Position numbers and translations under genes: made by a program. DNA of 64,000 nt from NCBI RefSeq assembly GCF_013122565.1, contig NZ_CP053258.1; one strand, given 5' to 3'. A model generated the notes under the pieces. The model did no database searches and was not told the DNA's origin. It saw nothing but the letters and a program-made list of their open reading frames with translations. Of the stretch, positions 1-56,307 are shown in pieces. This DNA comes from Escherichia coli. Lineage in GTDB: Bacteria; Pseudomonadota; Gammaproteobacteria; Enterobacterales; Enterobacteriaceae. Each line of letters opens with the position of its first letter. The stretch's first letter is position 1.

Positions 1-2160
1 GTTCGCCACACGAGTATTCTCTGCGCCTGGTGCTGCAATCAGAACGTTAGTTTCCCCCAGCGATTGCCCCAGGGTAATGCCCTGTGAATGGGCAACTAAA
101 CTGCCTGAAAGAGCGTAGTTCAGTTGTTGTTGACTGCCGTTATCGCTGTAGTTGTAGCCCACTCGGGCATCCGCAAACGCCCCTTTGTAATCCATGCTGG
201 CGCTACCATTAGCCGTTTTCCCCTCGCTGTTATATCCCTGTTGCACGCTGTAGCTCAGGTTACCGTCATCGAGTAGTGTCTCCGTTAAACCCAGGTTTTG
301 TGTAGTGTGCCCTTCGTTATCGATACTGGTGTTAGAGGTCATCCAGGCGTAATTTTTTTTCCTGGTATAGCTATCATTACTTCTGGGGAGCAACAGATTG
401 AGCGGCAGGGAAAAATTAAGTGCAAACACCTGATCAGCATCAGGTTGACCACGGGACTTACTGTAATTCCAGGAAACCCCTAGCGAGAGATCTTTAATTT
501 GCGTGTTGTAGCCAAACTGTAATAGCCGATCCTGTTGATCGGTATGCCAGTAAGTTTGCTGGCTACCACTTAAATAAAACGAACCGTACTCGCCTAATTG
601 CTGGGAGATATTGACCTGCAGTTTGCCACGTTTGGTGTAAAACAAATTGTAATAACGCGACCACATCGGCGTATCTTCATCATCACCGTCATTAAATTCG
701 TAGCCATCCATATGTTTATACATGGTGTCGGAAAGGGTGTAGAAACCCGACGTCGAATAGCGATAGCCCATCAATTGAAAGTTAGTACCCAATTGGTTGA
801 GCGTTTTGGCATACAGAAAACGATATGACTGACCTTTATGTTCGCTTTGGTCTGCCAGCGTACTCTTCGCCTGGGTCACATCGAACGAAATTGCTCCGAA
901 ATCGCCGAGGTTAAATCCCAGACCAAACATGGCGGCACGGTAATATTCAGCATATTGTCCACCACCATACCAGGTCGTTCCCCACGGTCCGCCCCACTGC
1001 AACGTGGCCTGGGCAAATTTGCTCTCCTGCTGTTCATTAGTATTGGTTCTGTATTTCGCCAGTGTCACCGCGTATTTGATTCGCCCCTGACGCTGGAGTA
1101 ATGGCACGCTGGAAAAGGGTACGCTGTAGCTATTGACGCTGCCGTCCGCTTCTTTGATTTCAACTAACAAATCACCGCTCGACGACGTGGAATAGAGATC
1201 ACTAATTTCAAAAGCACCAGGCGATACATAAGTTTGGTAAATGGTGTAACCATTTTGCTTAATCGTTATCTGGGCATTGCTTTTGGCGATACCACGCACC
1301 ACAGGCGCAAACCCTTTCAGGCTGTCTGGCAGCATGTTGTCATCTGACGCCAGCTGCACACCACGAAAGCTGACACTATCGAAAAAATCGCCTGCAGTAT
1401 AATCATCACCTACGGTCAGTTCGCCTTTCAGAGGAATAACCGCCCGTTGCAAATAGCTGCTGAGATTCTTCCATTCTGCGGTTTGGCCACTACTACGACT
1501 CCATGTTGAATTGTTGCGCAATCTCCATGGGCCTAAATTAACGCCACTGTTTAAATTCAGAAAATAGCTGTCGCCAGAATCACTGTCTGCGCTGCTATGA
1601 ATAGTGTTAGCCCCGCTAAACGAATATCCCAGTAATAGCGCGTTGATCCCTTCATCCCAACGTTCAGGGGGGACATAACCACGGGCATTACTTTTGATGG
1701 CAATTTGCGGTACTGAAATTTCCAGACGGAGTTTATTCACATTAAAAGTTACGCTGGCATCCGGAATAATCTCCGCCAATGGCGCACACGCTTGTTTGTC
1801 CAGTTGTTTAAAAGCCGGAAACGCATCAGTATTCACACCCATTGCATCCAGGCTTTCAGTCGTCAAACAGGCGGCAATCCCCTTCTCTGGCGTTATCTCA
1901 ACAAAATTGACGTTGCGCGTATCTACAATTGTCTGATTCAGAACAATATCGACTCGATAAACCCCTGGCGTTATTTTTTGCCCTTTTTCGAAACGGGACA
2001 AATCGGCCACCATTGAGGGATCATCTTTGAAAAAAGCTGGATCGAACCAGGTTTCAGCTTGTGCATTGAACGCTGCCGACACAAACACCACCAGCCCACC
2101 AATAAACGATGGCACTCCTCCAGAGCATAACAGGCTGTGTTGTCGGTGAGTTCTATACAT
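1..2160 (-). CDS. elfC: Fimbrial outer-membrane usher ElfC (YcbS); partial, 720 N-terminal codons present, 3' end lies beyond window start
   Basis: Reverse-strand frame read open from ATG at 2160 (MYRTHRQHSLLSSGGVPSFIGG...) to position 1; sits directly downstream of chaperone and subunit genes; only short ORFs on the opposite strand. Confidence 0.85.
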   Translation of the reverse strand, partial: MYRTHRQHSLLCSGGVPSFIGGLVVFVSAAFNAQAETWFDPAFFKDDPSMVADLSRFEKGQKITPGVYRVDIVLNQTIVDTRNVNFVEITPEKGIAACLTTESLDAMGVNTDAFPAFKQLDKQACAPLAEIIPDASVTFNVNKLRLEISVPQIAIKSNARGYVPPERWDEGINALLLGYSFSGANTIHSSADSDSGDSYFLNLNSGVNLGPWRLRNNSTWSRSSGQTAEWKNLSSYLQRAVIPLKGELTVGDDYTAGDFFDSVSFRGVQLASDDNMLPDSLKGFAPVVRGIAKSNAQITIKQNGYTIYQTYVSPGAFEISDLYSTSSSGDLLVEIKEADGSVNSYSVPFSSVPLLQRQGRIKYAVTLAKYRTNTNEQQESKFAQATLQWGGPWGTTWYGGGQYAEYYRAAMFGLGFNLGDFGAISFDVTQAKSTLADQSEHKGQSYRFLYAKTLNQLGTNFQLMGYRYSTSGFYTLSDTMYKHMDGYEFNDGDDEDTPMWSRYYNLFYTKRGKLQVNISQQLGEYGSFYLSGSQQTYWHTDQQDRLLQFGYNTQIKDLSLGVSWNYSKSRGQPDADQVFALNFSLPLNLLLPRSNDSYTRKKNYAWMTSNTSIDNEGHTTQNLGLTETLLDDGNLSYSVQQGYNSEGKTANGSASMDYKGAFADARVGYNYSDNGSQQQLNYALSGSLVAHSQGITLGQSLGETNVLIAAPGAENTRVAN

Positions 2161-2184
2161 CTCGCTCTCTTAACTGAAGACGTC

Positions 2185-2886
2185 TTACGATTTACAGTTG
2201 AGTTGCGGCGTTTCCGCCCCGTAGTCATTGATAGTTCGGTACGTTACGCTGCTGCTTTGTGCTCCCTTTGGCAGAGAGAATTGGTATTTATCAAAGGGAG
2301 AAATCATTTGATTTTTAACTACTTTTCCACCAATTTTCAGGTCTGTCAGGGTAATGAAATAAGGTGTTGGGTTACTGACCGTAACCATGTCAGCTGACGA
2401 AGTGCAACGCAGTTTCGCCGGAGCCTCGGCTAAGGGATACGCTAAACCTTTTGGTCGCCAGAAAAGTTTGATGACGCTTTGTGTGGCAATCTTCAGGGTA
2501 TTTCCCTCTTCCCGCTTCGTTGTTGAAGGGACTGCCCGTACGCTAGTGAAGAAAAGGGTTTCTCTGTCTTTCGGCAACGGCGCGCCAATGTACATAATGC
2601 GTAACAGATTCTCATTTGCCGGATTCAGCACAAATAGCGGTGGTGTAATAATAAAGTCTGCTGATTTTTTATTATCTGGGGTCATCACCCATGACTGAAT
2701 AAGATAAGGAACATCCGGACTGGTGTTACGTACACCCAGTGAAATTTGCTCTTCACCTTCTGAATAAACAAGACGTGTTGCTGCAAGTCCAATCCCGCCT
2801 TTACCTGCCGCCCATGCGGATGAGCAGCTGAGCAATATTGCCGTTAAACTTACGGTCACAATTCCCTTTGTTATGCAAGTTTTCAT
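2185..2886 (-). CDS. elfD: Periplasmic fimbrial chaperone ElfD (YcbR)
   Basis: 233-aa ORF with signal peptide and PapD-like chaperone sequence (…RIMYIGAPLPKDRETLFF…). Confidence 0.9.
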   Translation of the reverse strand: MKTCITKGIVTVSLTAILLSCSSAWAAGKGGIGLAATRLVYSEGEEQISLGVRNTSPDVPYLIQSWVMTPDNKKSADFIITPPLFVLNPANENLLRIMYIGAPLPKDRETLFFTSVRAVPSTTKREEGNTLKIATQSVIKLFWRPKGLAYPLAEAPAKLRCTSSADMVTVSNPTPYFITLTDLKIGGKVVKNQMISPFDKYQFSLPKGAQSSSVTYRTINDYGAETPQLNCKS

Positions 2887-2968
2887 AAATAGTCACTCTT
2901 AAAAAATATGAATATCCCCTCCAGAACACTGGAGGGGTACTAATTAATAAAACAATTAATGAGTTCTA

Positions 2969-3508
2969 TTAATAATAGTTAATATGGAAATTTGTTACCG
3001 CATTCACATTACCAGAAGTCGCTTTCCCCGTAGCGATATAATCAACTTTAAAAGTCAACGTCTGATCTCCATCTTGCAACAAAATGTTCCCGGTTTCTGT
3101 GTCTGGCGTGATGGCCGTTCTACCATCATTCATATACATTTGCAGGGCCACGTTTGTAGCAGCATCAGATGAGGCCTGGTTAGCAAACGCTGTAATCTGA
3201 GTAGTATCCGCAGTGCCATTAAAGGTGAACGTTGCATTTTTTGTTACGGTAGTATCACAATCTTTTAATTCAATTGGCACATCAGTTTGCACGCCAGAAA
3301 CCTGACCATTGGTTTGCAACTTCGTGGCACTAACATCTGGCAAAGTCACCACGGAATCTTTCGTCGCAGCGACCAGAGTACAAGCTGGAGCAATAACTTT
3401 ACCATTAAATGTTACTGAGCCATCCGTGATAGCATTATCATCAGCAGCCATAACGCTGGACGTTGCACATACCACAGTTATAAACGCCGTCAATACACTT
3501 TTTTTCAT
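2969..3508 (-). CDS. elfA: Fimbrial major subunit ElfA (YcbQ)
   Basis: ORF 2969..3517; start placed at MKKSVLTAFITVVCATSSVMA signal peptide (179 aa); fimbrillin-like. Confidence 0.88.
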   Translation of the reverse strand: MKKSVLTAFITVVCATSSVMAADDNAITDGSVTFNGKVIAPACTLVAATKDSVVTLPDVSATKLQTNGQVSGVQTDVPIELKDCDTTVTKNATFTFNGTADTTQITAFANQASSDAATNVALQMYMNDGRTAITPDTETGNILLQDGDQTLTFKVDYIATGKATSGNVNAVTNFHINYY

Positions 3509-3863
3509 CGTTATCATCCTGATCTCTTCGTAAATATGATAATGCCTTTAAATGACATTAGACTTAATAATAACAATAATTGTCCGCCATTTAAATCAAG
3601 CATACTAAATCCAATAAGTGACAAATCTTTAATTTATAGATTTCATGAATATTTAAATATTAACTGAACGAGTAATTCATTGATTCAACATCTAATGACT
3701 ATCCAATAAATCAATATGCGTGATATATAAAGCCCTTTCTTTAGTTTATTTTCAGAAAAAGATACACAAAATTTATATTTGGCATTTTCTTGTCTCTCCG
3801 ACAGACTGACCGAATTGTTATCAATGTTAACAAAAAAAGAACAATTGGTTATAAGGAGAGAGT

Positions 3864-4439
3864 ATGCGTGTCATCACCCTGGCGGGTAGTCCTCGCTTTC
3901 CTTCTCGCTCCAGCTCCTTGCTGGAATATGCGCGGGAAAAACTAAATGGCCTGGATGTAGAGGTTTATCACTGGAATCTGCAAAACTTCGCCCCGGAAGA
4001 TCTACTTTATGCTCGTTTCGATAGTCCGGCACTCAAGACCTTCACCGAACAGCTGCAACAGGCCGATGGGCTGATTGTCGCCACGCCTGTGTATAAAACC
4101 GCCTATTCCGGTGCGCTGAAAACCCTGCTCGACCTGCTGCCAGAACGCGCTTTGCAAGGCAAAGTGGTGCTACCGCTGGCGACGGGCGGTACGGTGGCTC
4201 ATCTGCTGGCGGTCGATTATGCCCTTAAGCCAGTTTTAAGTACGATGAAAGCCCAGGAGATCCTGCACGGCGTGTTTGCCGATGACTCACAAGTTATTGA
4301 TTACCATCACAAACCCCAGTTCACGCCAAATCTGCAAACCCGTCTTGATACCGCGCTAGAAACTTTCTGGCAGGCATTGCACCGCCGCGATGTTCAGGTT
4401 CCTGACCTTCTGTCTCTGCGAGGTAATGTCCATGCGTAA
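3864..4439 (+). CDS. ssuE: NADPH-dependent FMN reductase SsuE
   Basis: 191-aa ORF MRVITLAGSPRFPSRSS…; first gene of sulfonate-sulfur utilisation operon. Confidence 0.95.
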   Translation: MRVITLAGSPRFPSRSSSLLEYAREKLNGLDVEVYHWNLQNFAPEDLLYARFDSPALKTFTEQLQQADGLIVATPVYKTAYSGALKTLLDLLPERALQGKVVLPLATGGTVAHLLAVDYALKPVLSTMKAQEILHGVFADDSQVIDYHHKPQFTPNLQTRLDTALETFWQALHRRDVQVPDLLSLRGNVHA

Positions 4440-5391
4440 CATCATTAAACTGGCGCTGGCGGGATTGCTTAGCGTCTCTACGATTGTGGTTGCTGCAGAA
4501 TCCTCGCCTGAAGCGTTAAGGATTGGCTATCAGAAAAGCAATATCAGTTCTGTGCTGGCGAAAAATTACCAAATGCTGGAAAAACGCTATCCGCAAACAA
4601 AAATCTCGTGGGTGGAGTTTCCCGCGGGACCGCAAATGTTGGAAGCGTTAAACGTTGGCAGTATTGATCTCGGCAGTACCGGGGATATTCCGCCAATCTT
4701 TGCCCAGGCTGCCGGGGCTGATTTGGTATATGTGGGCGTCGAGCCACCGAAGCCCAAAGCCGAAGTGATTCTGGTGGCAGAAAACAGCCCGATCAAAACC
4801 GTAGCCGATCTTAAAGGTCACAAAGTTGCCTTTCAGAAAGGTTCCAGTTCACACAACCTTTTACTGCGTGCACTGCGTCAGGCCGGACTTAAGTTTACCG
4901 ATATACAACCCACTTACCTGACACCCGCTGATGCCCGCGCCGCGTTCCAGCAAGGTAACGTTGACGCCTGGGCTATCTGGGATCCCTACTACTCTGCTGC
5001 ATTATTACAGGGCGGCGTGCGGGTGTTGAAAGACGGCACCGATCTCAATCAAACCGGATCGTTTTATCTGGCAGCTCGCCCCTATGCAGAAAAAAACGGC
5101 GCTTTTATTCAGGGCGTACTGGCAACTTTCAGCAAGGCTGATGCGTTAACTCGCAGCCAGCGTGAGCAAAGCATCGCTTTACTGGCCAAAACAATGGGTT
5201 TACCGGCACCGGTGATTGCCTCGTATCTGGATCATCGTCCTCCCACCACCATCAAACCGGTGAGCGCTGAAGTTGCCGCCTTACAGCAGCAAACGGCAGA
5301 TCTGTTTTATGAAAACCGTCTGGTGCCGAAAAAAGTCGATATTCGCCAGCGCATCTGGCAGCCCACTCAACTGGAAGGAAAACAATTATGA
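4432..5391 (+). CDS. ssuA: Aliphatic sulfonate ABC transporter periplasmic binding protein SsuA
   Basis: ORF 4390..5391; start chosen at [21 protein letters not shown] signal peptide (319 aa); overlaps ssuE stop by 8 nt. Confidence 0.93.
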
Positions 5392-6533
5392 GTCTGAATA
5401 TGTTCTGGTTTTTACCGACCCACGGTGACGGGCACTATCTGGGAACGGAAGAAGGTTCACGCCCGGTTGATCACGGTTATCTGCAACAAATTGCGCAAGC
5501 GGCGGATCGTCTGGGTTATACCGGTGTGCTGATCCCAACGGGGCGCTCCTGCGAAGATGCGTGGCTGGTGGCGGCGTCGATGATCCCGGTGACGCAGCGG
5601 CTGAAGTTTCTTGTCGCCCTGCGCCCCAGCGTAACCTCACCTACCGTTGCCGCTCGCCAGGCCGCCACGCTTGACCGTCTCTCAAATGGTCGTGCGTTGT
5701 TTAATCTGGTCACAGGCAGCGATCCACAAGAGCTGGCAGGCGACGGCGTGTTCCTTGATCATAGCGAGCGCTACGAAGCCTCGGCGGAATTTACCCAGGT
5801 CTGGCGGCGCTTATTGCTGGGGGAAACCGTCGATTTCAACGGTAAACATATTCATGTGCGGGGAGCCAAACTGCTCTTCCCGCCGATTCAACAGCCGTAT
5901 CCTCCGCTTTACTTTGGCGGATCGTCAGACGTCGCCCAGGAGCTGGCGGCAGAACAAGTTGATCTCTACCTCACCTGGGGCGAACCGCCAGAACTGGTTA
6001 AAGAGAAAATCGAACAAGTGCGGGCGAAAGCTGCCGCGCATGGACGCAAAATTCGTTTCGGTATTCGTCTGCATGTGATTGTTCGTGAAACCAACGACGA
6101 AGCGTGGCAGGCCGCCGAGCGGTTAATCTCGCATCTTGATGATGAAACTATCGCCAAAGCACAGGCCGCATTCGCCCGGACGGATTCCGTAGGACAACAG
6201 CGAATGGCGGCGTTACATAATGGCAAGCGCGACAATCTGGAGATCAGCCCCAATTTATGGGCGGGCGTTGGCTTAGTGCGCGGCGGTGCCGGGACGGCGC
6301 TGGTGGGCGATGGTCCTACGGTCGCTGCGCGAATCAACGAATACGCTGCACTTGGCATCGACAGCTTTGTGCTTTCGGGCTACCCGCATCTGGAAGAAGC
6401 GTATCGGGTCGGCGAGTTACTGTTCCCGCATCTGGATGTCGCCATTCCGGAAATTCCCCAGCCGCAGCCGCTGAATCCGCAAGGCGAAGCGGTGGCAAAT
6501 GATTTTATCCCCCGTAAAGTCGCGCAAAGCTAA
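5388..6533 (+). CDS. ssuD: FMNH2-dependent alkanesulfonate monooxygenase SsuD
   Basis: 381-aa [22 protein letters not shown]…; ATGA overlap with ssuA. Confidence 0.95.
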
Positions 6534-6543
6534 GGAAGAAATA

Positions 6544-7335
6544 ATGGCAACGCCAGTGAAGAAGTGGTTATTGCGCGTTGCCCCCTGGTTTTTACCGGTG
6601 GGCATCGTGGCGGTGTGGCAACTGGCCTCCTCAGTTGGCTGGCTGTCGACGCGTATTTTGCCCTCACCGGAAGGGGTGGTGATGGCGTTCTGGACGCTCT
6701 CCGCCAGCGGCGAACTGTGGCAGCATCTGGCGATCAGCACCTGGCGGGCGCTGATTGGCTTTTCAATTGGCGGATCGCTGGGCTTGATTCTGGGACTGAT
6801 TAGCGGGCTGTCACGCTGGGGAGAACGGCTGCTGGATACCTCCATTCAGATGTTGCGCAACGTGCCGCATCTGGCGCTGATCCCGCTGGTGATTTTGTGG
6901 TTTGGCATTGATGAATCCGCAAAAATCTTTCTGGTGGCGCTCGGTACGCTATTCCCCATTTATATCAACACCTGGCACGGCATCCGTAATATCGATCGCG
7001 GGTTGGTGGAAATGGCGCGTAGCTATGGATTATCCGGCATACCGCTGTTTATCCATGTGATCCTGCCTGGTGCCCTGCCCTCAATTATGGTCGGCGTGCG
7101 TTTTGCGTTGGGCCTGATGTGGCTGACGCTGATTGTTGCCGAAACCATTTCTGCCAATTCAGGCATTGGTTATCTGGCGATGAATGCGCGGGAGTTTTTG
7201 CAAACGGACGTGGTGGTAGTCGCTATTATTCTTTACGCCTTGCTCGGCAAACTTGCTGACGTCAGCGCGCAGCTGTTAGAGCGCCTCTGGTTGCGCTGGA
7301 ATCCGGCTTATCATTTGAAGGAGGCCACGGTATGA
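6544..7335 (+). CDS. ssuC: Aliphatic sulfonate ABC transporter permease SsuC
   Basis: ORF 6499..7335; start at [19 protein letters not shown] (263 aa); multi-TM permease. Confidence 0.92.
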
Positions 7336-8099
7336 ATACTGCTCGTCTGAACCAGGGCACGCCATTGTTGCTCAATGCAGTAAGCAAACATTACGCGGAA
7401 AATATCGTCCTGAACCAACTGGATTTACATATTCCGGCAGGTCAGTTTGTGGCGGTGGTGGGCCGCAGCGGTGGTGGCAAAAGTACCCTGCTGCGCCTGC
7501 TGGCAGGGCTGGAAACGCCAACCGCTGGCGATGTGTTAGCGGGCACCACACCGCTGGCTGAAATTCAGGAAGACACGCGAATGATGTTTCAGGATGCGCG
7601 TCTGCTGCCGTGGAAATCGGTGATTGATAACGTTGGGTTAGGCCTTAAAGGCCAGTGGCGCGATGCCGCGCGTCGGGCGTTGGCTGCGGTAGGACTGGAG
7701 AATCGCGCCGGGGAATGGCCTGCCGCACTTTCAGGCGGGCAGAAACAGCGAGTGGCGCTGGCAAGAGCATTGATTCATCGACCGGGTTTATTGTTGCTTG
7801 ATGAACCGCTCGGGGCACTGGACGCCTTAACGCGACTCGAGATGCAGGATTTGATTGTGTCACTTTGGCAGGAGCACGGCTTTACCGTACTGTTGGTGAC
7901 GCATGATGTGAGCGAAGCGGTAGCAATGGCTGACCGGGTGTTATTAATTGAAGAGGGAAAAATTGGTCTGGATTTGACAGTGGATATCCCCCGTCCGCGC
8001 CGGTTAGGGTCAGTGCGATTAGCGGAGCTGGAAGCGGAAGTGTTGCAAAGGGTGATGCAGCGTGGTGAATCTGAAACTCGCCTGAGAAAACAGGGATAA
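7332..8099 (+). CDS. ssuB: Aliphatic sulfonate ABC transporter ATPase SsuB
   Basis: 255-aa ORF with Walker [10 protein letters not shown] and ABC signature LSGGQKQR; ATGA overlap with ssuC. Confidence 0.95.
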
Positions 8100-12391: not shown

Positions 12392-13792
12392 ATGAGCGTT
12401 GTGCCTGTAGCCGACGTACTCCAGGGCCGCGTAGCCGTTGACAGCGAAGTCACCGTACGCGGATGGGTACGTACCCGCCGAGATTCAAAAGCTGGCATCT
12501 CCTTCCTCGCCGTTTATGACGGTTCCTGCTTTGATCCTGTACAGGCTGTCATCAATAATTCTCTGCCCAATTACAATGAAGACGTCCTGCGTCTGACCAC
12601 CGGTTGCTCGGTCATTGTGACGGGTAAAGTCGTGGCGTCGCCGGGCCAGGGGCAACAATTTGAAATTCAGGCCAGCAAGGTTGAAGTTGCTGGTTGGGTT
12701 GAAGATCCAGACACTTACCCGATGGCGGCAAAACGCCACAGCATTGAGTATCTGCGTGAAGTCGCTCACCTGCGTCCGCGCACAAACCTGATTGGTGCCG
12801 TCGCGCGCGTTCGTCATACGCTGGCGCAGGCGCTGCATCGCTTCTTTAACGAGCAGGGATTCTTCTGGGTTTCAACGCCACTGATTACTGCGTCTGATAC
12901 CGAAGGTGCTGGCGAAATGTTCCGCGTTTCTACGCTGGATCTGGAAAACCTGCCGCGTAACGATCAGGGCAAAGTGGATTTCGACAAAGACTTCTTTGGT
13001 AAAGAGTCTTTCCTGACCGTATCTGGCCAGTTGAACGGCGAAACCTACGCTTGCGCATTGTCCAAAATTTATACCTTCGGCCCGACTTTCCGTGCTGAAA
13101 ACTCCAACACCAGCCGTCACCTGGCGGAATTCTGGATGCTGGAGCCGGAAGTGGCGTTTGCTAACCTGAACGATATCGCGGGTCTGGCTGAAGCCATGCT
13201 GAAATATGTCTTCAAAGCGGTTCTCGAAGAACGCGCAGACGACATGAAATTCTTCGCTGAACGCGTAGATAAAGATGCCGTTTCACGTCTGGAACGCTTC
13301 ATTGAGGCCGATTTCGCGCAGGTGGATTACACCGACGCAGTGACCATTCTCGAAAACTGCGGCAGGAAGTTTGAAAACCCGGTTTACTGGGGCGTCGATC
13401 TCTCTTCTGAGCATGAGCGTTATCTGGCGGAAGAACACTTTAAAGCACCGGTAGTGGTTAAAAACTATCCGAAAGATATTAAAGCGTTCTATATGCGCCT
13501 CAACGAAGACGGTAAAACCGTTGCGGCTATGGACGTTCTGGCTCCGGGCATCGGTGAGATCATTGGTGGCTCCCAGCGTGAAGAACGTCTGGACGTGCTG
13601 GACGAGCGTATGCTGGAAATGGGCCTGAATAAAGAAGATTACTGGTGGTATCGCGATCTGCGTCGCTACGGTACTGTTCCGCATTCAGGTTTCGGTCTTG
13701 GTTTTGAACGCCTGATTGCTTACGTAACTGGTGTGCAAAACGTGCGTGATGTGATTCCGTTCCCACGTACTCCGCGTAACGCCAGCTTCTAA
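12392..13792 (+). CDS. asnS: Asparagine--tRNA ligase
   Basis: ORF 12347..13792; start at [25 protein letters not shown] (466 aa); class II aaRS. Confidence 0.95.
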
Positions 13793-13805
13793 TTTAGCGT
13801 CTACA

Positions 13806-13832
13806 AGAGCCAGCACCCGCTGGCTCTTTTTT
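13806..13832 (+). terminator. Rho-independent terminator after asnS
   Basis: AGAGCCAGC-accc-GCTGGCTCT hairpin followed by TTTTT. Confidence 0.7.
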
Positions 13833-14182
13833 ATCCTTTCTGTCAAGTTATCTGTTTGTTAAGTCAAGCAATCTATTTGCAACCCCGCCATAACGATCAT
13901 CCTGTTACGGAATATTACATTGCAACATTTACGCACAAAAAATAACCCGCATTCTTATTGCGGATTAGTTTTTTCTTAGCTGATAGCACAATTTTCATAC
14001 TATTTTTTGGCATTCTGGATGTCTGAAAGAAGATTTTGTGCCAGGTCGATAAAGTTTCCATCAGAAACAAAATTTCCGTTTAGTTAATTTAAATATAAGG
14101 AAATCATATAAATAGATAAAAATTGCTGTAAATATCATCACGCTTCTATGGAAATATGACGGTGTTCACAAAGTTCCTTAAT

Positions 14183-16856: not shown

Positions 16857-16871
16857 ACGTTAAAAACAATG

Positions 16872-16897
16872 AAGCCCGCTGAAAAGCGGGCTTTTTT
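16872..16897 (+). terminator. Rho-independent terminator after aspC (in convergent gap with gloC)
   Basis: AAGCCCGCT-gaaa-AGCGGGCTT hairpin followed by TTTTT. Confidence 0.7.
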
Positions 16898-16905
16898 ATG
16901 CGCCT

Positions 16906-44569: not shown

Positions 44570-46330
44570 ATGACGCAAACATTTATCCCCGGCAAAGATG
44601 CCGCTCTGGAAGATTCCATCGCTCGCTTCCAGCAAAAACTTTCAGACCTCGGCTTTCAGATTGAAGAGGCCTCCTGGCTGAATCCCGTGCCTAACGTCTG
44701 GTCTGTACATATTCGCGACAAAGAGTGCGCACTGTGTTTTACCAACGGTAAAGGCGCAACCAAAAAAGCAGCGCTGGCTTCTGCACTCGGTGAATATTTC
44801 GAGCGTCTCTCAACCAACTACTTTTTTGCTGATTTCTGGCTGGGCGAAACCATCGCCAACGGCCCGTTCGTACATTACCCCAACGAAAAATGGTTCCCTC
44901 TGACAGAAAATGACGATGTGCCAGAAGGGCTGCTCGATGACCGTCTGCGTGCTTTTTACGATCCGGAAAATGAACTGACCGGCAGCATGCTAATTGACCT
45001 GCAATCCGGTAACGAAGATCGTGGTATTTGCGGTCTGCCGTTTACACGCCAGTCTGATAATCAAACCGTTTATATTCCGATGAATATCATTGGTAACCTG
45101 TACGTTTCTAACGGTATGTCCGCTGGCAATACCCGCAACGAAGCGCGCGTTCAGGGATTATCTGAAGTTTTCGAACGCTACGTGAAAAACCGCATTATTG
45201 CTGAAAGCATCAGCCTGCCAGAGATCCCGGCAGAGGTGCTTGCGCGTTATCCAGCGGTGGTTGAAGCGATCGAAACACTGGAAGCGGAAGGTTTCCCGAT
45301 CTTCGCTTATGATGCCTCGCTTGGCGGTCAATATCCGGTGATCTGCGTGGTACTGTTCAATCCAGCTAATGGTACCTGCTTTGCATCCTTCGGTGCACAT
45401 CCTGATTTTGGCGTTGCACTGGAACGTACCGTGACCGAGTTGCTGCAAGGACGCGGTCTAAAAGATTTGGATGTGTTTACTCCGCCAACCTTCGATGATG
45501 ATGAAGTCGCTGAACATACTAACCTCGAAACGCACTTTATCGATTCCAGCGGTTTAATCTCCTGGGACCTGTTCAAGCAGGATGCCGATTATCCGTTTGT
45601 GGACTGGAGCTTCTCCGGCACCACGGAAGAAGAGTTTGCTACGCTGATGGCTATCTTCAACAAAGAAGATAAAGAAGTTTATATTGCCGATTACGAGCAT
45701 CTGGGCGTTTATGCTTGCCGCATTATCGTGCCTGGCATGTCCGATATTTATCCGGCAGAAGATCTGTGGCTGGCGAATAACAGCATGGGCAGCCATTTAC
45801 GTGAAACGATTCTTTCGCTCCCAGGCAGCGAGTGGGAAAAAGAAGATTACCTGAACCTTATCGAGCAACTGGATGAAGAAGGTTTTGATGACTTTACCCG
45901 CGTGCGTGAGCTATTGGGTCTGGCGACCGGGTCGGATAACGGTTGGTACACCCTGCGTATCGGTGAATTAAAAGCCATGCTGGCGCTGGCTGGTGGCGAT
46001 CTGGAACAGGCTCTGGTCTGGACCGAATGGACGATGGAGTTTAACTCATCAGTATTTAGTCCGGAACGCGCCAACTATTATCGCTGCCTGCAAACGTTGT
46101 TATTACTGGCGCAGGAAGAAGATCGCCAGCCGCTGCAATATTTGAATGCGTTTGTTCGCATGTACGGCGCAGATGCCGTGGAAGCCGCCAGTGCGGCAAT
46201 GAGCGGCGAAGCGGCGTTTTATGGCTTGCAACCAGTAGATAGCGATCTGCACGCGTTTGCTGCACATCAGTCGTTGTTGAAAGCCTACGAAAAGCTGCAG
46301 CGCGCCAAAGCAGCATTCTGGGCAAAATAA
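44570..46330 (+). CDS. ycaO: YcaO-domain protein (ATP-dependent; ribosomal protein S12 methylthiolation accessory factor)
   Basis: ORF 44537..46330; start at MTQTFIPGKDAALEDSIARFQQ (586 aa). Confidence 0.9.
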   Translation: MTQTFIPGKDAALEDSIARFQQKLSDLGFQIEEASWLNPVPNVWSVHIRDKECALCFTNGKGATKKAALASALGEYFERLSTNYFFADFWLGETIANGPFVHYPNEKWFPLTENDDVPEGLLDDRLRAFYDPENELTGSMLIDLQSGNEDRGICGLPFTRQSDNQTVYIPMNIIGNLYVSNGMSAGNTRNEARVQGLSEVFERYVKNRIIAESISLPEIPAEVLARYPAVVEAIETLEAEGFPIFAYDASLGGQYPVICVVLFNPANGTCFASFGAHPDFGVALERTVTELLQGRGLKDLDVFTPPTFDDDEVAEHTNLETHFIDSSGLISWDLFKQDADYPFVDWSFSGTTEEEFATLMAIFNKEDKEVYIADYEHLGVYACRIIVPGMSDIYPAEDLWLANNSMGSHLRETILSLPGSEWEKEDYLNLIEQLDEEGFDDFTRVRELLGLATGSDNGWYTLRIGELKAMLALAGGDLEQALVWTEWTMEFNSSVFSPERANYYRCLQTLLLLAQEEDRQPLQYLNAFVRMYGADAVEAASAAMSGEAAFYGLQPVDSDLHAFAAHQSLLKAYEKLQRAKAAFWAK

Positions 46331-46338
46331 AATCAAAT

Positions 46339-46357
46339 AGCCTACGCAATGTAGGCT
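46339..46357 (+). terminator. Hairpin immediately after ycaO stop (weak terminator candidate)
   Basis: AGCCTAC-gcaat-GTAGGCT; a second hairpin GGGGCAT-N7-ATGCCCC lies at 46383..46403. Confidence 0.35.
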
Positions 46358-46661
46358 TAATGATTCGTCTGAGTTATATTATGGGGCATTTTTTTAATGC
46401 CCCGCTTTACATATATTTGCATTAATAAAATAATTGTAATTATAAAGTTAAATATCGGTAATTTGTATTTAATAAATACGATCGATATTGTTACTTTATT
46501 TGCCTGATGCTCCCTTTTAATTAACTGTTTTAGCGGAGGATGCAGAAAAAATTCAACTCATTTGTTAATTTTTAAAATTTATTTTTATTTGGATAATCAA
46601 ACATTTACTCCGTATTTGCATAAAAACCATGCGAGTTACGGGCCTATAAGCCAGGCGAGAT

Positions 46662-50871: not shown

Positions 50872-50904
50872 AAAGCGGCAACTTTATTGAGTTGCCGCTT
50901 TTTT
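50872..50904 (+). terminator. Rho-independent terminator after pflA (in convergent gap with ycaK)
   Basis: AAAGCGGCAAC-tttattga-GTTGCCGCTTT hairpin followed by TTTT. Confidence 0.65.
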
Positions 50905-50943
50905 ATTCCGCGCTTCATTCTGCTACAGCGTTTTTAACACATT

Positions 50944-51534
50944 TTATAGTGCATCTACCATATCCCGTACCTGAGATAATAACGACTGATAATAGCTCGC
51001 ATGAAGTTCTTGCCCATCGAATACCACTGTATTACACAAGAAAGTGACATCGGCATCTTCAATACCAAGATAACTGCACATATTTATCAAATAATCGCTT
51101 ATATTTTTTTCCCAGCCCATCTGGACAAATGATTCTTTGTCTCCTCCAACCAGCGCCACCCAACGAACTTTATTGAATGGTAATTTGTGCCCATCTCCAT
51201 AAGCCAGCCCATTATTCCATACTCTGTCAATATATCCTTTTAGCATTGCCGGGAAGCTGTACCACCAGAGAGGAAAAACCACCACTAACGTGTCATGTTC
51301 AAGCAGCTCTGAATAAAGCTGATGAACCTCTGGAGAATAACGTTTATCCATATTCTTCCAGTCTGGTTCATCTTCTGGCGTCATCACCGGGTTGAAATTA
51401 CGCCGATATAAATCGAGTTCCGTCACCTGTATTTTCCGCTCCATTGCCCGCTGATGGATCGCATCAGCAATATGTGCGGTCAATGAATCATGACGAGGAT
51501 GGGCCCATACCAAATAAATACGTTCAGACTGCAT
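50944..51534 (-). CDS. ycaK: Flavodoxin-like NAD(P)H dehydrogenase (quinone)-family protein YcaK
   Basis: 196-aa ORF MQSERIYLVWAHPRHDSLTAHIADAIHQRAMERK…. Confidence 0.88.
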   Translation of the reverse strand: MQSERIYLVWAHPRHDSLTAHIADAIHQRAMERKIQVTELDLYRRNFNPVMTPEDEPDWKNMDKRYSPEVHQLYSELLEHDTLVVVFPLWWYSFPAMLKGYIDRVWNNGLAYGDGHKLPFNKVRWVALVGGDKESFVQMGWEKNISDYLINMCSYLGIEDADVTFLCNTVVFDGQELHASYYQSLLSQVRDMVDAL

Positions 51535-51583
51535 AATTTTACCTCCACGTTAAGTTCTGGAGCGCACTTTACGCAGGCGGCAT

Positions 51584-51604
51584 AATCATGTAAACGTGAT
51601 GATT
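51584..51604. promoter_or_regulatory. Interrupted dyad in ycaK-ycaN divergent promoter region (candidate LysR-type operator)
   Basis: AATCAT-gtaaacgtg-ATGATT (6-N9-6 perfect inverted repeat) 30 nt upstream of ycaN start and 50 nt upstream of ycaK start. Confidence 0.3.
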
Positions 51605-51633
51605 CAGGATGAGTTAATGAAGGATTTTCACTA

Positions 51634-52542
51634 ATGCGGATGAATATGTCTGACTTTGCCACTTTCTTTGCTGTGGCCCGTAATCAAAGCTTTCGTGCAG
51701 CGGGCGATGAGTTAGGCTTATCCTCGTCCGCCATTAGCCATAGTATTAAAACACTGGAACAACGTCTTAAAATTCGCTTATTCAATCGGACAACCCGAAG
51801 CGTATCGTTAACGGAAGCGGGTTCTAATCTCTATGAACGATTGCGCCCAGCTTTCGACGAAATTCAGATCATGTTAGATGAAATGAATGATTTTCGTCTG
51901 ACACCGACAGGAACGCTCAAAATCAATGCCGCCCGGATAGCTGCACGTATATTTTTAATGCCTTTACTGGTTGGTTTCACACGTGAATATCCTGATATTA
52001 AAGTCGAGCTCACAACTGACGACTCTCTTATCGATATCGTCCAGCAGGGCTTTGACGCTGGCGTTCGACTTAGTGGCATCGTCGAAAAAGATATGATCAG
52101 CGTGGCGATCGGCCCGCCAGTGAAATTATGTGTAGCAGCAACGCCAGAGTACTTTACAAGATATGGCAAACCCCGCCATCCTCATGATCTGCTTAATCAT
52201 CAATGTGTTGTTTTTCGTTATCCCAGCGGTAAACCTTTCCACTGGCAATTTGCAAAGGATCTGGAAATTGCTGTCGCAGGGAATATCATTCTGGATGATG
52301 TTGATGCTGAACTGGATGCCGTTTTGATGGGGGCTGGTATCGGGTATCTGCTCTATGAACAGATCAAGGAGTACCTTGATACCGGTCGTTTAGAATGTGT
52401 ACTGGAAGACTGGATCACAGAGCGTCCAGGCTTCCAGGTCTATTACCCAAACCGCCAGTATATGTCCTGCGGCTTGCGCGCATTTCTCGATTATGTAAAA
52501 ACGGGCCAGATCTGCCAGAGTCAGCGTCACCGACCACAATAA
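51634..52542 (+). CDS. ycaN: LysR-family transcriptional regulator YcaN
   Basis: 302-aa ORF with N-terminal HTH (FRAAGDELGLSSSAISHSIKTLEQRLKIRLFNRTTRSVSLTEAG); divergent from ycaK. Confidence 0.9.
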   Translation: MRMNMSDFATFFAVARNQSFRAAGDELGLSSSAISHSIKTLEQRLKIRLFNRTTRSVSLTEAGSNLYERLRPAFDEIQIMLDEMNDFRLTPTGTLKINAARIAARIFLMPLLVGFTREYPDIKVELTTDDSLIDIVQQGFDAGVRLSGIVEKDMISVAIGPPVKLCVAATPEYFTRYGKPRHPHDLLNHQCVVFRYPSGKPFHWQFAKDLEIAVAGNIILDDVDAELDAVLMGAGIGYLLYEQIKEYLDTGRLECVLEDWITERPGFQVYYPNRQYMSCGLRAFLDYVKTGQICQSQRHRPQ

Positions 52543-53973
52543 TTATTTACTATTCGCTTTACGCGCCAGCAGCGGGAATATCAGTCCTAATCCTACCAGC
52601 ACAAACGGCGTTGCAACATTCAGCGCCAACTGGAAGGTCCACTCTGCAGTGAAGGCTTCCATTTTCGGGAAGATCCCCGTCAAACAGGCAAAGGCGGTAA
52701 AGGCAAAACACCAAATCCCGACGGTCATTGCCAGAGACTTATTACGAATAAAGACATATTCTGGTTTATATTTCTGCGCCAGGCGAACGACTGCAATAAA
52801 TGCAACAAATACCCATAAATAACGCAGCGGCATCACTACCGAGTTAAGATTCAACAGCCATTTATAGAGATTGTTCATATCACCGATGCCGAGAGTCGGC
52901 AGCATAATCAGGATCGCCACCAGCACCAGGGTCAGAAAATAGCCATTAACGGGCGTACCAGAAGCGTTGGTACGACATAAACTGGCAGGAATATATTTGC
53001 TGTCAGCGTCGCCTAATAGCACTTTAAGCGGGGCATCAATCGAGAATACCAGCGCAGCTACTTGTCCCAGGGTATTCGCAATGGCGTAAATCACCATTAA
53101 AGTATTCCCCATGTTGTAATACTCGCCCAGCTTCTGAAAGGCGTAATACTGACCGTTAGTCATTAAGTCATCCGGGATATTACGCGAGTCAAACATCATT
53201 CCCATCGCCAGTGAGCCCAGAATGGCACAAACCGCAACCATCACCGCCAGGCATAGCATCCCTTTTGGAAATTCTTTTCCTGGGTTGCGCGTTTGATTAA
53301 CGTAAGGAGAAATCTTCTCTGCTCCGCCAACCGCGAAAACCAGCATTGAAATAGTGGTAATGTAGGTAAAGTCGATATGAGGAATGAACGTTTCCCAGGT
53401 AATGTTTGTGGTCGCAATATGCACTTCAGTAATCGCAGGCGCGGTTACTGCCATCGCCACATACAGGAGCGACATAACAAACATCGCAATCCCTGCCACA
53501 GAACCGACGATTTTCAGCGATTTCATACCGCGTGAAGCAACCCACATAAAGAAGATAAACAGCACCAGCGTTAACCCCTGTAACGCTACGACTGAATATT
53601 CTTTGATTAGCGAACCGTCGCCTTTCATCGCCCAACCGAGCGCAATCAGAATTGCCTGGGGTTTTTGTGCCAGATAGGGAATATGCACCACCCAGTAGGT
53701 CCACGCGGCGAGATAAGCCAGTCCGGGTCCCATCGTGTGTTTAATCCAGGTACTGACCCCGCCCTTCCCATCTTTGAAGGTCGAGCCTAACTGTCCAACA
53801 ATTAGCGCATAAGGTGTGAAATAGAGCGCAAAGATAAACACCCATGAAAAAACAACCACCAGCCCCTGGTTGGCATAGTTATTAACAACATTGCCAAAAC
53901 CCCAGACAGTGATAAAAGACATCAGCGCAATGTTGTACCATCGCAGCTGTTTTTCCTGAACATTCCCAGCCAT
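52543..53973 (-). CDS. ycaM: APC-superfamily amino acid/polyamine transporter YcaM
   Basis: ORF 52543..54165; start placed at MAGNVQEKQLRWYNIALMSF (476 aa) with AAGGA SD upstream; polytopic membrane protein. Confidence 0.85.
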   Translation of the reverse strand: MAGNVQEKQLRWYNIALMSFITVWGFGNVVNNYANQGLVVVFSWVFIFALYFTPYALIVGQLGSTFKDGKGGVSTWIKHTMGPGLAYLAAWTYWVVHIPYLAQKPQAILIALGWAMKGDGSLIKEYSVVALQGLTLVLFIFFMWVASRGMKSLKIVGSVAGIAMFVMSLLYVAMAVTAPAITEVHIATTNITWETFIPHIDFTYITTISMLVFAVGGAEKISPYVNQTRNPGKEFPKGMLCLAVMVAVCAILGSLAMGMMFDSRNIPDDLMTNGQYYAFQKLGEYYNMGNTLMVIYAIANTLGQVAALVFSIDAPLKVLLGDADSKYIPASLCRTNASGTPVNGYFLTLVLVAILIMLPTLGIGDMNNLYKWLLNLNSVVMPLRYLWVFVAFIAVVRLAQKYKPEYVFIRNKSLAMTVGIWCFAFTAFACLTGIFPKMEAFTAEWTFQLALNVATPFVLVGLGLIFPLLARKANSK

Positions 53974-54130
53974 AGACAAATCCTTCGCCAAAATTAAAGG
54001 GGCATCTGTAAAACGAGGGATTATGCGCGGCAAATAAGAAGTGCGGAAATAGCGAAATGCAAAATTATAACCTGCTGCACATTTTATTTTTAAACGAATA
54101 AAATTTGGAAAAAAGCAAGTCAGATAGAAG

Positions 54131-54168
54131 AAACAAAAAAGCAGAGTGTGAAACAGTAAGTTCACACT
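54131..54168 (-). terminator. Rho-independent terminator after ycaD
   Basis: AGTGTGAA-acagtaag-TTCACACT hairpin; on ycaD strand followed by UGCUUUUUUGUUUCUUC. Confidence 0.55.
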
Positions 54169-54182
54169 TTGCTTGAATTCAT

Positions 54183-56272: not shown

Positions 56273-56299
56273 AAGAGAACCGGGGCCGAAACCCCGGTT
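56268..56299 (-). terminator. Rho-independent terminator after dmsC (in convergent gap with ycaC)
   Basis: AACCGGGG-ccgaaa-CCCCGGTT hairpin; U-rich tract follows on dmsC strand. Confidence 0.55.
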
Positions 56300-56307
56300 G
56301 TTACTGA

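What the first reader, a model, noticed from the sequence alone, without database searches (positions are those of the whole stretch)
1..3863. AT-rich cryptic chaperone-usher fimbrial cluster (elfA-elfD-elfC) with a 355-bp AT-rich control region shared with ssuE
This is the only accessory-like segment in the window. The elf genes and the 3509..3863 gap are visibly AT-rich (long A/T runs such as 3540..3800), typical of H-NS-silenced, horizontally acquired fimbrial operons. The same gap must also carry the divergent, sulfate-starvation-controlled ssu promoter, so two unrelated regulatory programmes are packed into one intergenic region.
Basis: partly seen in the sequence, partly recalled or inferred. 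Interest (0 to 1): 0.3.

Follow-up and report, generated by a model that had tools for sequence, protein, structure and literature searches.

The report
Known E. coli elf fimbrial island
This is the already well-described E. coli elf (ycb) fimbrial gene cluster and the 355-bp AT-rich spacer it shares with the sulfonate-utilisation operon ssuEADCB; it really is a horizontally inserted, H-NS-bound island, but that has been published, so the finding is ordinary.

Summary
Window 1-3508 (minus strand) carries elfC (cut by the window edge), elfD and elfA. Positions 3509-3863 are the 355-bp spacer to ssuE.

The spacer has 27.6% G+C, the lowest of any 355-bp stretch in the window. The elf genes have 46.0% G+C against 50.9% for the rest.

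Comparative data show a true insertion. In 75 of 80 Enterobacteriaceae species, and in B2-type E. coli, pyrD and ssuE are direct neighbours. The elf segment is found in 4042 of 5426 complete E. coli genomes. The 7.1-kb island carries 287 of the spacer's 355 bp. Only 3796-3863 is ancestral ssuE promoter DNA.

The published record already covers the interpretation:
- The same 355-bp fragment binds SlyA.
- Both operons are H-NS-associated and SlyA-inducible.
- Ycb fimbriae are cryptic, functional and clade-specific.

The segment is not the only accessory-like one, because ycaK-ycaN-ycaM is also low in G+C and variable. The two programmes are not unrelated, because they share H-NS/SlyA control.

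One small addition is that the island replaced the conserved upstream part of the ancestral ssuE control region.

Novelty: already known. Interest is low.

The parts
1..2160 (-). elfC (ycbS), outer-membrane usher. These are the N-terminal 720 codons; the 3' end runs off the window's left edge.
   Evidence: The frame is open to the window edge. Pfam gives PapC_N plus Usher, E 6.5e-196, covering profile positions 2-492 of 549. K-12 annotation agrees. dN/dS against K-12 is 0.09.
2185..2886 (-). elfD (ycbR), periplasmic PapD-type fimbrial chaperone.
   Evidence: ORF. Pfam gives PapD_N (9e-37) and PapD_C (6e-15). K-12 annotation agrees. G+C 0.458, GC3 0.429.
2916..2937 (-). G+C-rich hairpin (CCCCUCCAG-UGUU-CUGGAGGGG) in the 82-bp elfA-elfD spacer, followed within 15 nt by a U-run. 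It is a likely attenuator or mRNA-stabilising stem that sets the ratio of major subunit to assembly proteins (inferred).
   Evidence: Perfect 9-bp inverted repeat. RNA fold of 2887-2968 gives -25.3 kcal/mol, z -4.1, with 0 of 200 shuffles as stable. There are no differences from K-12 anywhere in the 82 bp. Shimada 2014 lists the transcription unit as 'elfAD'.
2969..3508 (-). elfA (ycbQ), FimA-like major fimbrial subunit, 179 aa. It has a signal peptide, two cysteines (C43 and C84) and a C-terminal NYY.
   Evidence: Translation. Pfam Fimbrial, 3e-17. The best solved relatives are type-1 FimA pilins, E 3e-17. It has the lowest GC3 in the window, 0.379.
3509..3795 (.). The part of the elfA-ssuE spacer that belongs to the island: 287 bp, G+C 0.258. 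It is the elf control region and the most likely H-NS nucleation zone.
   Evidence: Absent from ST131, where 69 unrelated bp stand in its place. Homologous along its length to the Escherichia sp. E1V33 spacer, with conserved patches at 3494-3545, 3586-3597, 3620-3648 and 3747-3787. A profile of the ancestral pyrD-ssuE spacer finds no match in it.
3511..3522 (-). TCAGGATGATAA, the SlyA-like site proposed by Curran et al. 2017, 8 bp upstream of elfA and overlapping its ribosome-binding site.
   Evidence: Site and position given in PMC5797941. The sequence is read directly in the window.
3567..3595 (-). Candidate elfA promoter TTTAAA-17-TATTAT with TG before the -10 hexamer. The predicted start is about 50 nt upstream of the elfA ATG.
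   Evidence: Consensus scan, 9 of 12 matches. It is the same pair of hexamers that Shimada 2014 assigned to elfA from RpoD holoenzyme SELEX. The -35 part lies in a patch conserved with E1V33. No transcript start was verified here.
3552..3580 (+). Promoter-like site ATGACA-17-AATAAT pointing toward ssuE, 284 bp upstream of its ATG. It is probably a spurious or constitutive polymerase-binding site inside the island, not the Cbl-dependent promoter.
   Evidence: Consensus scan, 10 of 12 matches. Shimada 2014 assigned it to ssuEADCB. It lies in DNA that is absent from B2 strains.
3796..3863 (+). Ancestral ssuE promoter-proximal region, 68 bp, G+C 0.353. It contains the conserved blocks CAGACTG, AATTGTTATCAATGTTA (which holds the dyad TTGTTA-N7-TAACAA at 3815-3833) and AACAATTGGTTATAAGGAG (ribosome-binding site).
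   Evidence: 194 of 200 positions are identical to ST131 from 3796 onward. The blocks are at least 75-90% conserved in the 76 aligned empty-site sequences. The hexamers and transcript start could not be fixed from sequence alone.
3864..4439 (+). ssuE, NAD(P)H-dependent FMN reductase, first gene of ssuEADCB (3864-8099).
   Evidence: ORF. Pfam FMN_red, 1e-35. K-12 annotation agrees. Found in at least 5415 of 5426 E. coli genomes.

Best explanation
The segment is the promoter-proximal end of the E. coli elfADCG-ycbUVF (ycbQRST-ycbUVF) operon. This is a type-1-like (gamma-1) chaperone-usher fimbrial operon, transcribed away from ssuEADCB.

It is a 7.1-kb insertion into the ancestral pyrD-ssuE spacer. 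The insertion brought its own 287-bp, 26% G+C control region. That region now abuts the last 68 bp of the original ssuE promoter.

In K-12-type strains this AT-rich DNA is bound by H-NS, which keeps elf almost silent in the laboratory. SlyA binds the same 355-bp fragment and raises both operons (published work).

ssuEADCB is additionally switched on by the LysR-type activator Cbl under sulfate starvation. That rests on van der Ploeg 1999 and Bykowski 2002, which I cite from other papers and from memory because I could not read them here.

A stable hairpin after elfA probably lets the major subunit be made in excess over chaperone and usher.

Shown here: gene identity, composition, island boundaries, the empty site in outgroups, and purifying selection. 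Taken from the literature: H-NS and SlyA binding, cryptic status, and Cbl control. Inferred: that H-NS reaches ssuE because of the island DNA, and the role of the hairpin.
For: **Identity**
- 98.5% ungapped identity to K-12 with the same annotated genes.
- Pfam families fit. ElfA is closest to solved FimA pilins.

**Composition**
- The spacer has G+C 0.276, the minimum for the window. The elf coding DNA has 0.460 against 0.509.

**Insertion**
- In 75 of 80 species loci recovered with SsuE, pyrD and ssuE are 231-356 bp apart with nothing between them.
- The same holds in ST131, where homology to the window breaks at K-12 locus positions 2708/2709 and 9795/9796, the latter being window 3795/3796.
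- The elf segment is found in 4042 of 5426 complete E. coli genomes, while ssuE is found in at least 5415.
- Wurpel 2013 independently classed Ycb as clade-specific: present in phylogroups A, B1, D and E, with B2 carrying Auf instead.
- Elf-like clusters sit at the identical pyrD-side junction in Escherichia sp. E1V33 and in Pseudocitrobacter.

**Maintained function**
- dN/dS is 0.09-0.15 for the elf genes.
- Fimbriae are assembled when the operon is expressed artificially.

**Regulation**
- Curran 2017 shows a SlyA band shift on the 355-bp fragment, a 3.6-fold rise for ssu and 2.7-fold for elf, and H-NS association of both operons in three data sets.
- The hairpin has z -4.1.
Against: - The compositional signal in the coding DNA is only about 4-5 points of G+C, and it overlaps other genes in the window.
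- GIST and IslandViewer did not flag elf as an island in K-12; that column is blank in Curran's Table 2.
- No H-NS occupancy data exist for this strain. The primary ChIP tables could not be opened.
- Matches to the 10-bp H-NS motif in the spacer are few: two, with 1 and 2 mismatches.
- The window's strain is only 98.6-99.1% identical to the closest of 5426 complete genomes. K-12 regulation is therefore extrapolated, although the spacer differs from K-12 at only 2 of 355 positions.
- The transcription starts of elfA and ssuE were not verified.
Confidence: 0.9

Rival explanations
1. elf is ancestral core DNA that B2 strains and other genera lost by deletion. On this view the AT-richness is ordinary promoter and surface-protein composition, not a sign of foreign origin.
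For: The elf-like cluster occupies the same pyrD-side junction in three separate lineages (E. coli, Escherichia sp. E1V33, Pseudocitrobacter), which could reflect one old event. Deletions do occur: strain KFu022 lost elfA to elfG through IS1. G+C is only 4-5 points below the flanks.
Against: 75 of 80 species loci and ST131 have an uninterrupted spacer of 231-356 bp (all but one within 231-255 bp). That spacer carries a shared middle segment, including a GATAAATCATTT block that is at least 90% conserved, and elf-positive E. coli lack it. A deletion cannot recreate that sequence, so the empty sites are ancestral alleles and not scars. dS of the elf genes against K-12 (0.03-0.06) is lower than that of the flanking ssuA, ssuD, ssuB and pepN genes (0.10-0.18). 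This fits a more recent shared origin for the island.
Confidence: 0.05
2. The spacer holds two independent, insulated control systems: fimbrial silencing on one side and Cbl/CysB sulfate-starvation control on the other, with no cross-talk.
For: The candidate elfA promoter (3567-3595) and the conserved ssuE-proximal blocks (3796-3863) are about 200 bp apart. ssu is known to depend on Cbl. The middle of the spacer (3655-3704) is the part least conserved with E1V33, at 47-57%.
Against: Both operons rise together when SlyA is overproduced. SlyA shifts the whole fragment, and both operons are listed as H-NS-associated in three data sets. The AT-rich island DNA reaches to within 68 bp of the ssuE ATG.
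Confidence: 0.2
3. The spacer contains an invertible, phase-variable promoter switch like fimS of type-1 fimbriae.
For: elf is a FimA-like gamma-1 system, and many such operons are phase-variable.
Against: No inverted repeats bracket the candidate promoter; only short scattered pairs were found. The single 10-bp pair (3432-3441 and 3536-3545) brackets the start codon, not a promoter. No recombinase gene lies next to the operon in K-12.
Confidence: 0.02

Closest known systems
E. coli K-12 / O157:H7 elfADCG-ycbUVF (ycbQRST-ycbUVF; ELF or Ycb fimbriae)
   Same: Same locus, gene order and strand relationship to ssuE. Nucleotide identity to K-12 is 98.5% with no gaps, and the 355-bp spacer is identical in length with 2 differences. 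The Pfam architecture is the same.
   Different: Nothing structural differs. There are 29, 15 and 6 point differences in elfC, elfD and elfA, mostly synonymous. Only the first three genes lie in the window.
Type-1 fimbriae (fimAICDFGH), the model gamma-1 chaperone-usher system
   Same: The order major subunit, then chaperone, then usher is shared. ElfA aligns with solved FimA structures at E about 1e-16 to 1e-17. Published work describes Ycb as rigid, gamma-1-class fimbriae.
   Different: There is no fimS-type invertible switch and there are no fimB/fimE recombinases. The chromosomal site is different. elf is silent in laboratory culture, whereas fim is phase-variable.
Other H-NS-silenced, SlyA/LeuO-counter-silenced cryptic fimbrial operons of K-12 (yad, yeh, sfm)
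   Same: AT-rich control region, H-NS association, and induction by SlyA overproduction.
   Different: The elf control region is fused head-to-head with the promoter of a core metabolic operon. Wurpel 2013 classes yad and yeh as 'core-associated' and ycb as clade-specific.
Elf-like clusters of Escherichia sp. E1V33 and Pseudocitrobacter faecalis at the same pyrD-ssuE site
   Same: Same seven-gene order and the same pyrD-side junction, after GCAAACGTTTTC.
   Different: Protein identity to the E. coli genes is 73-86% for E1V33 and 54-73% for Pseudocitrobacter. Pseudocitrobacter keeps the ancestral ssuE upstream segment (profile E 0.006). The window, K-12 and E1V33 do not.

Membership tests
Chaperone-usher fimbrial operon | Outer-membrane usher with PapC_N, Usher and PapC_C domains | tested here: met
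   PapC_N (5e-49) and Usher (6.5e-196) are present in the 720 residues inside the window. The C-terminal domain lies beyond the window edge, but the gene is full length in K-12 at 98.7% nucleotide identity.
Chaperone-usher fimbrial operon | Periplasmic two-domain PapD-like chaperone | tested here: met
   PapD_N 9e-37 and PapD_C 6e-15 in ElfD.
Chaperone-usher fimbrial operon | Secreted pilin subunit of the Fimbrial family, with signal peptide, cysteine pair and C-terminal aromatic residues | tested here: met
   Pfam PF00419, 3e-17. The sequence reads MKKSVLTAFITVVCATSSVMA..., with C43, C84 and a ...INYY end. It matches FimA structures.
Chaperone-usher fimbrial operon | Fimbriae actually assembled on the cell surface | not testable with these tools
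   Published for the K-12 and O157 Sakai operons under artificial promoters (PMC7098969; Korea 2010 as cited).
elf/ycb orthologue group of E. coli | Located between pyrD and ssuE, divergent from ssuE, with near-identical sequence | tested here: met
   Ungapped 98.5% identity and the same neighbours on the ssuE side. The pyrD side is outside the window.
Horizontally acquired, H-NS-silenced island | Presence/absence polymorphism with an intact empty site in relatives | tested here: met
   The elf segment is found in 4042 of 5426 E. coli genomes. The site is empty in ST131 and in 75 of 80 species loci.
Horizontally acquired, H-NS-silenced island | Lower G+C than the host chromosome | tested here: met
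   The K-12 island has G+C 0.465, the window's elf coding DNA 0.460 and the control region 0.258, against 0.509 for the rest. The signal is modest in the coding part.
Horizontally acquired, H-NS-silenced island | H-NS occupancy, and derepression without H-NS | not testable with these tools
   Reported for K-12 second-hand: H-NS association in three data sets and repression per Korea 2010, both as cited by Curran 2017. The primary tables are not held. The motif count in the spacer is uninformative.
Horizontally acquired, H-NS-silenced island | Mobility genes or a tRNA/att site at the borders | tested here: not met
   K-12 has no integrase, transposase or tRNA annotated next to the island. Rfam finds nothing in 1-4600. 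The only candidate is an 8-bp repeat, AACGTTTT, at both junctions in Pseudocitrobacter, and it is not preserved in the window. The transfer mechanism is therefore unknown, and recombination through the conserved flanks is likely.
Cbl-dependent sulfate-starvation promoter (ssu) | Lies directly upstream of an intact ssuEADCB operon, with promoter-proximal sequence conserved across species | tested here: met
   The operon is intact at 3864-8099. Positions 3796-3863 are conserved in the aligned empty-site loci.
Cbl-dependent sulfate-starvation promoter (ssu) | Cbl binding site upstream of the -35 hexamer, and APS-sensitive activation | not testable with these tools
   This is known for K-12 only through citations. 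The papers with the footprints are not held, so the site could not be placed relative to the 3795/3796 junction.
fimS-type invertible phase switch | Inverted repeats flanking the promoter, plus dedicated recombinases | tested here: not met
   There are no flanking repeats and no recombinase genes.

The most novel reading that the evidence does not exclude
The elf insertion did more than land beside ssuE. It removed the upstream 69 bp of the ancestral ssuE control region, including the GATAAATCATTT block that is at least 90% conserved across the empty-site alignment (74 other species plus B2-type E. coli).

If so, elf-positive E. coli drive the sulfonate operon from a chimeric promoter whose activator-binding part is island DNA. 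That group includes K-12, where the Cbl, CysB and IHF footprints were mapped.

The H-NS/SlyA control of ssu would then be a by-product of the island. B2 strains would regulate ssu differently: no H-NS silencing and a different Cbl site.
Probability: 0.35. Interest if true: 0.35.

Novelty: already known. Interest (0 to 1): 0.1.

Why it matters
It matters little as a discovery. The operon, its cryptic state, its H-NS/SlyA control, the exact 355-bp fragment and its clade-specific distribution are all published.

The residual value is as a clean example of a horizontally acquired adhesin island welded onto the promoter of a core metabolic operon. This makes a testable prediction: E. coli lineages with and without the island (about 3:1 among complete genomes) should differ in how the sulfonate-utilisation operon is silenced and activated.

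It also cautions that the K-12 ssu promoter model may not describe the ancestral enterobacterial promoter.

Tried and rejected
- **Rfam.** A scan of 1-4600 at E up to 1 gave no RNA family.
- **fimS-like switch.** I searched for inverted repeats. Only short scattered pairs turned up and none bracket a promoter.
- **Long-range stem in the elfA leader.** The 10-bp inverted pair at 3432-3441 and 3536-3545 could sequester the elfA leader. The fold of 3420-3562 has z -0.51, with 54 of 200 shuffles as stable, so I dropped it.
- **H-NS high-affinity motif TCGATAAATT.** There are two near-matches in the spacer. The whole window has 88 against 63 expected. This is too weak to use.
- **Is window 3722-3795 a diverged copy of the ancestral 69 bp?** Local and global alignments against B2, Citrobacter, Kosakonia, Raoultella and Pseudocitrobacter segments scored no better than dinucleotide shuffles. 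A profile of 75 empty-site sequences found no hit in the window, K-12 or E1V33. I therefore treat the segment as replaced or diverged beyond recognition.
- **ssuE core promoter.** Two hexamer pairs fit poorly: CCGACA-15-TATCAA and CTGACC-16-TAACAA with TG. The scan tool lists neither. I left this unresolved.
- **Primary sources for the ssu footprints and transcript start.** The JBC 1999 paper is not held. Literal sequence strings from the promoter match no held paper.
- **H-NS ChIP supplements.** Those of Grainger 2006 and Kahramanoglou 2011 are not held.
- **Source organism.** I tried to name it. The best identity to any complete E. coli genome is 98.6-99.1%, to O145:H28-like and O18ac:H14 strains. 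It is not S. flexneri 2457T, where ycbQ is a pseudogene. This remains unresolved.

Full report
**What is there**

The window is an Escherichia coli-type chromosome segment, in the reverse of the usual K-12 orientation. Window 1-4500 aligns without a single gap to K-12 MG1655 at 98.5% identity. The K-12 annotation places these features on it:
- elfC at 1-2160, minus strand, cut by the window edge
- elfD at 2185-2886
- elfA at 2969-3508
- a 355-bp spacer at 3509-3863
- ssuEADCB at 3864-8099, plus strand

Pfam confirms an usher (PapC_N plus Usher, E 6.5e-196), a PapD-type chaperone, a Fimbrial-family pilin and an FMN reductase. ElfA has a signal peptide, two cysteines and a C-terminal NYY. Its closest solved relatives are type-1 FimA pilins.

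The rest of the window is colinear with K-12, running from pepN to the dms genes. The remaining four genes of the operon (elfG, ycbU, ycbV, ycbF) lie beyond the left edge of the window.

**Check of the observation**

The coordinates and the 355-bp length are exact. The spacer has 27.6% G+C and is the most AT-rich 355-bp stretch in the 64 kb. Only 0.06% of such windows are as low, and all of them overlap it. The next lowest are the asnS-ompF spacer (0.296) and the region upstream of focA (0.285).

The elf coding DNA has 46.0% G+C against 50.9% for the rest. elfA has the lowest third-position G+C of all 48 long ORFs (0.379), and elfD is third lowest. A codon-usage index built from the window's own genes puts the elf genes at the low end (0.59-0.66). 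That range overlaps the ssu genes (0.63-0.70). Composition is therefore suggestive for the genes and striking only for the spacer.

**Is it really foreign?**

- A megablast search with 1-3508 finds the elf segment in 4042 of 5426 complete E. coli genomes. ssuE is found in at least 5415.
- In B2-type strains (ST131, E2348/69, APEC O1, LF82), similarity to the window begins only 62-68 bp upstream of the ssuE ATG.
- In ST131, pyrD and ssuE are direct neighbours with a 236-bp spacer.
- Aligning ST131 with K-12 gives sharp junctions. Homology runs from pyrD to 100 bp beyond its ATG (ending ...GCAAACGTTTTC) and resumes at window 3796. In between, K-12-type genomes have 7087 bp where ST131 has 69 bp.
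- A scan of one genome per bacterial species with SsuE returned 80 loci. In 75 of them, pyrD and ssuE are adjacent. These cover Citrobacter, Enterobacter, Leclercia, Kosakonia, Klebsiella, Raoultella, Kluyvera, Buttiauxella, Cedecea and three further Escherichia genomes, among others. The spacers are 231-356 bp with median G+C 0.418.
- Two of the 80 loci are cut by contig ends.
- Three carry an elf-like cluster at the same place: Escherichia sp. E1V33 (73-86% protein identity) and two Pseudocitrobacter genomes (54-73%). The pyrD-side junction is identical in all of them.

The empty sites share a conserved middle segment. This includes the block GATAAATCATTT, which is at least 90% conserved. 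A profile built from that segment finds it in Pseudocitrobacter (E 0.006) but not in the window, K-12 or E1V33. Pairwise tests against shuffles agree.

Empty sites are therefore ancestral alleles and not deletion scars, and elf is an insertion. Wurpel et al. 2013 had already classed Ycb as clade-specific: phylogroups A, B1, D and E, with Auf instead in B2.

No mobility gene, tRNA or clear target duplication marks the island in E. coli. Spread by recombination through the conserved flanks is the most economical idea. The lower synonymous divergence of the elf genes (0.03-0.06) than of ssuA, ssuD, ssuB and pepN (0.10-0.18) against K-12 fits that idea.

**Anatomy of the spacer**

Of the 355 bp, 287 (3509-3795, G+C 0.258) belong to the island and 68 (3796-3863, G+C 0.353) are ancestral ssuE DNA.

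*Island part.* Comparison with E1V33 shows conserved patches:
- 3494-3545, which covers the elfA ribosome-binding site and leader. It includes TCAGGATGATAA, which Curran et al. proposed as a SlyA site.
- 3586-3597
- 3620-3648
- 3747-3787

A promoter-like TTTAAA-17-TATTAT with an upstream TG lies at 3595-3567 on the elfA strand. These are the same hexamers that Shimada et al. assigned to elfA from RpoD holoenzyme SELEX. That paper's 'ssuE' promoter (ATGACA-17-AATAAT, 3552-3580) lies 284 bp from the ssuE ATG, inside island DNA that B2 strains lack. It is therefore unlikely to be the physiological ssu promoter.

*Ancestral part.* It holds three blocks conserved across Enterobacteriaceae, including the dyad TTGTTA-N7-TAACAA at 3815-3833 and the ribosome-binding site. 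I could not fix the -35 and -10 hexamers or the transcript start from sequence alone.

*Downstream of elfA.* The 82-bp elfA-elfD spacer folds into a 9-bp G+C-rich hairpin followed by a U-run (-25.3 kcal/mol, z -4.1). It is identical to K-12. By analogy with other fimbrial operons, it probably favours excess major subunit.

**How it most likely works**

The published record answers most of this for K-12.
- Curran et al. 2017 amplified exactly this 355-bp fragment. Their primers match window 3509-3528 and 3842-3863.
- They showed that SlyA binds it, with an apparent Kd of about 50-100 nM.
- SlyA overproduction raised ssuEADCB 3.6-fold and elfADCG-ycbUVF 2.7-fold.
- They listed both operons as H-NS-associated in the Grainger, Kahramanoglou and Oshima data sets.
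- They cite Korea et al. 2010 for poor laboratory expression, function under a constitutive promoter and H-NS repression.
- Ycb fimbriae of O157 Sakai assemble and promote early biofilm and adhesion when expressed artificially.

The elf genes are under purifying selection between this strain and K-12 (dN/dS 0.09-0.15), so 'cryptic' here means silent, not decaying.

The mechanism I commit to has three parts:
- H-NS nucleates on the 26% G+C island control region and silences elf.
- SlyA, and probably other counter-silencers, relieve the silencing in both directions.
- Cbl supplies the sulfate-starvation signal to ssu.

Confidence is 0.9 for identity and origin. It is lower, and borrowed from K-12, for regulation in this particular strain, whose spacer differs from K-12 at 2 of 355 positions.

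First, elf is not the only accessory-like segment. ycaK, ycaN and ycaM (about 50.9-54.2 kb) have G+C 0.43-0.47. A 5.4-kb query spanning ycaK to ycaC is covered at 80% or more in only 3323 of 5426 genomes, with two recurrent deletion types.

Second, the two regulatory programmes are not unrelated. They share the H-NS/SlyA layer.

**The one small new point**

The island did not simply land next to ssuE. The ancestral 69 bp upstream of window position 3796, which holds the most conserved element of the enterobacterial ssuE upstream region, is missing from elf-positive E. coli. AT-rich island DNA stands in its place.

My recollection, which I could not verify, is that the K-12 Cbl footprint lies just upstream of the -35 hexamer. 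If that is right, the textbook ssu promoter is a chimera. The H-NS/SlyA sensitivity of ssu would then be a side effect of the island, and B2 strains should behave differently.

I put this at about 0.35 probability. The papers with the footprints were not available, so the Cbl site could not be placed.

**Verdict**

Interest is low (0.1).

Noticed in passing
window 50900-54200 (ycaK 50944-51534, ycaN 51634-52542, ycaM within 52543-54165): This is a second low-G+C (0.43-0.47), variable segment. A 5.4-kb query (50900-56300) is covered at 80% or more in only 3323 of 5426 complete E. coli genomes. O157:H7-type genomes lack roughly 50900-52430, and another group lacks roughly 50900-54130.
   Followed up: partly
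whole window: The best identity to any of 5426 complete E. coli genomes is only 98.6-99.1%. The closest are O18ac:H14 strain 873.10 and O145:H28 strains. The source is therefore a lineage poorly represented among complete E. coli genomes, or a Shigella-like relative. It was not identified.
   Followed up: partly
window 4432-6533 (ssuA, ssuD): Divergence from K-12 is uneven. ssuA differs at 5.5% of nucleotides (dS 0.18) and ssuD at 3.3%. The elf genes differ at 1.1-2.1% (dS 0.03-0.06) and the spacer at 0.6%. This looks like a recombination mosaic across the locus.
   Followed up: partly
window 16857-16905 (aspC-gloC spacer): The window lacks about 173 bp that K-12 has here. The K-12 extra is a REP/BIME-like insert between two copies of AAGCGGGCT, next to the aspC terminator.
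   Followed up: partly
window 3815-3833: The dyad TTGTTA-N7-TAACAA lies inside the block AATTGTTATCAATGTTA, which is at least 90% conserved upstream of ssuE in the aligned empty-site loci. It has the T-N11-A shape of a LysR-type box, but it sits only 31-49 bp from the ATG. Its binding partner is unknown.
   Followed up: no
L027 (Pseudocitrobacter faecalis) about 2770 and about 9840; L004 (Escherichia sp. E1V33): In Pseudocitrobacter the elf-like island is flanked on both sides by AACGTTTT, a possible 8-bp target duplication. E1V33 retains only AACGT on the ssuE side, and the window has GCGT.
   Followed up: partly
elf locus in other E. coli genomes (hits H3, H4, H5, H55, H71, H73; locus L002): The elf cluster is a frequent target of insertion sequences. 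Several strains carry IS1, IS5 or IS30 copies within or next to elfA, elfD or elfC. Strain KFu022 has an IS1-mediated deletion running from elfA codon 19 into elfG.
   Followed up: partly
window 13767-14112 and 46213-46472: These are the two other very AT-rich non-coding stretches in the window. One is the asnS-ompF spacer (minimum G+C 0.296). The other is the region upstream of focA (minimum 0.285).
   Followed up: no
elfA alleles across E. coli (query window 2969-4439): Identity to the 1471-bp elfA-spacer-ssuE query (window 2969-4439) falls into discrete classes of about 98%, 96% and 92% in elf-positive genomes. In the 92% class the gene is annotated only as 'fimbrial protein'. This suggests distinct major-subunit alleles.
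   Followed up: no
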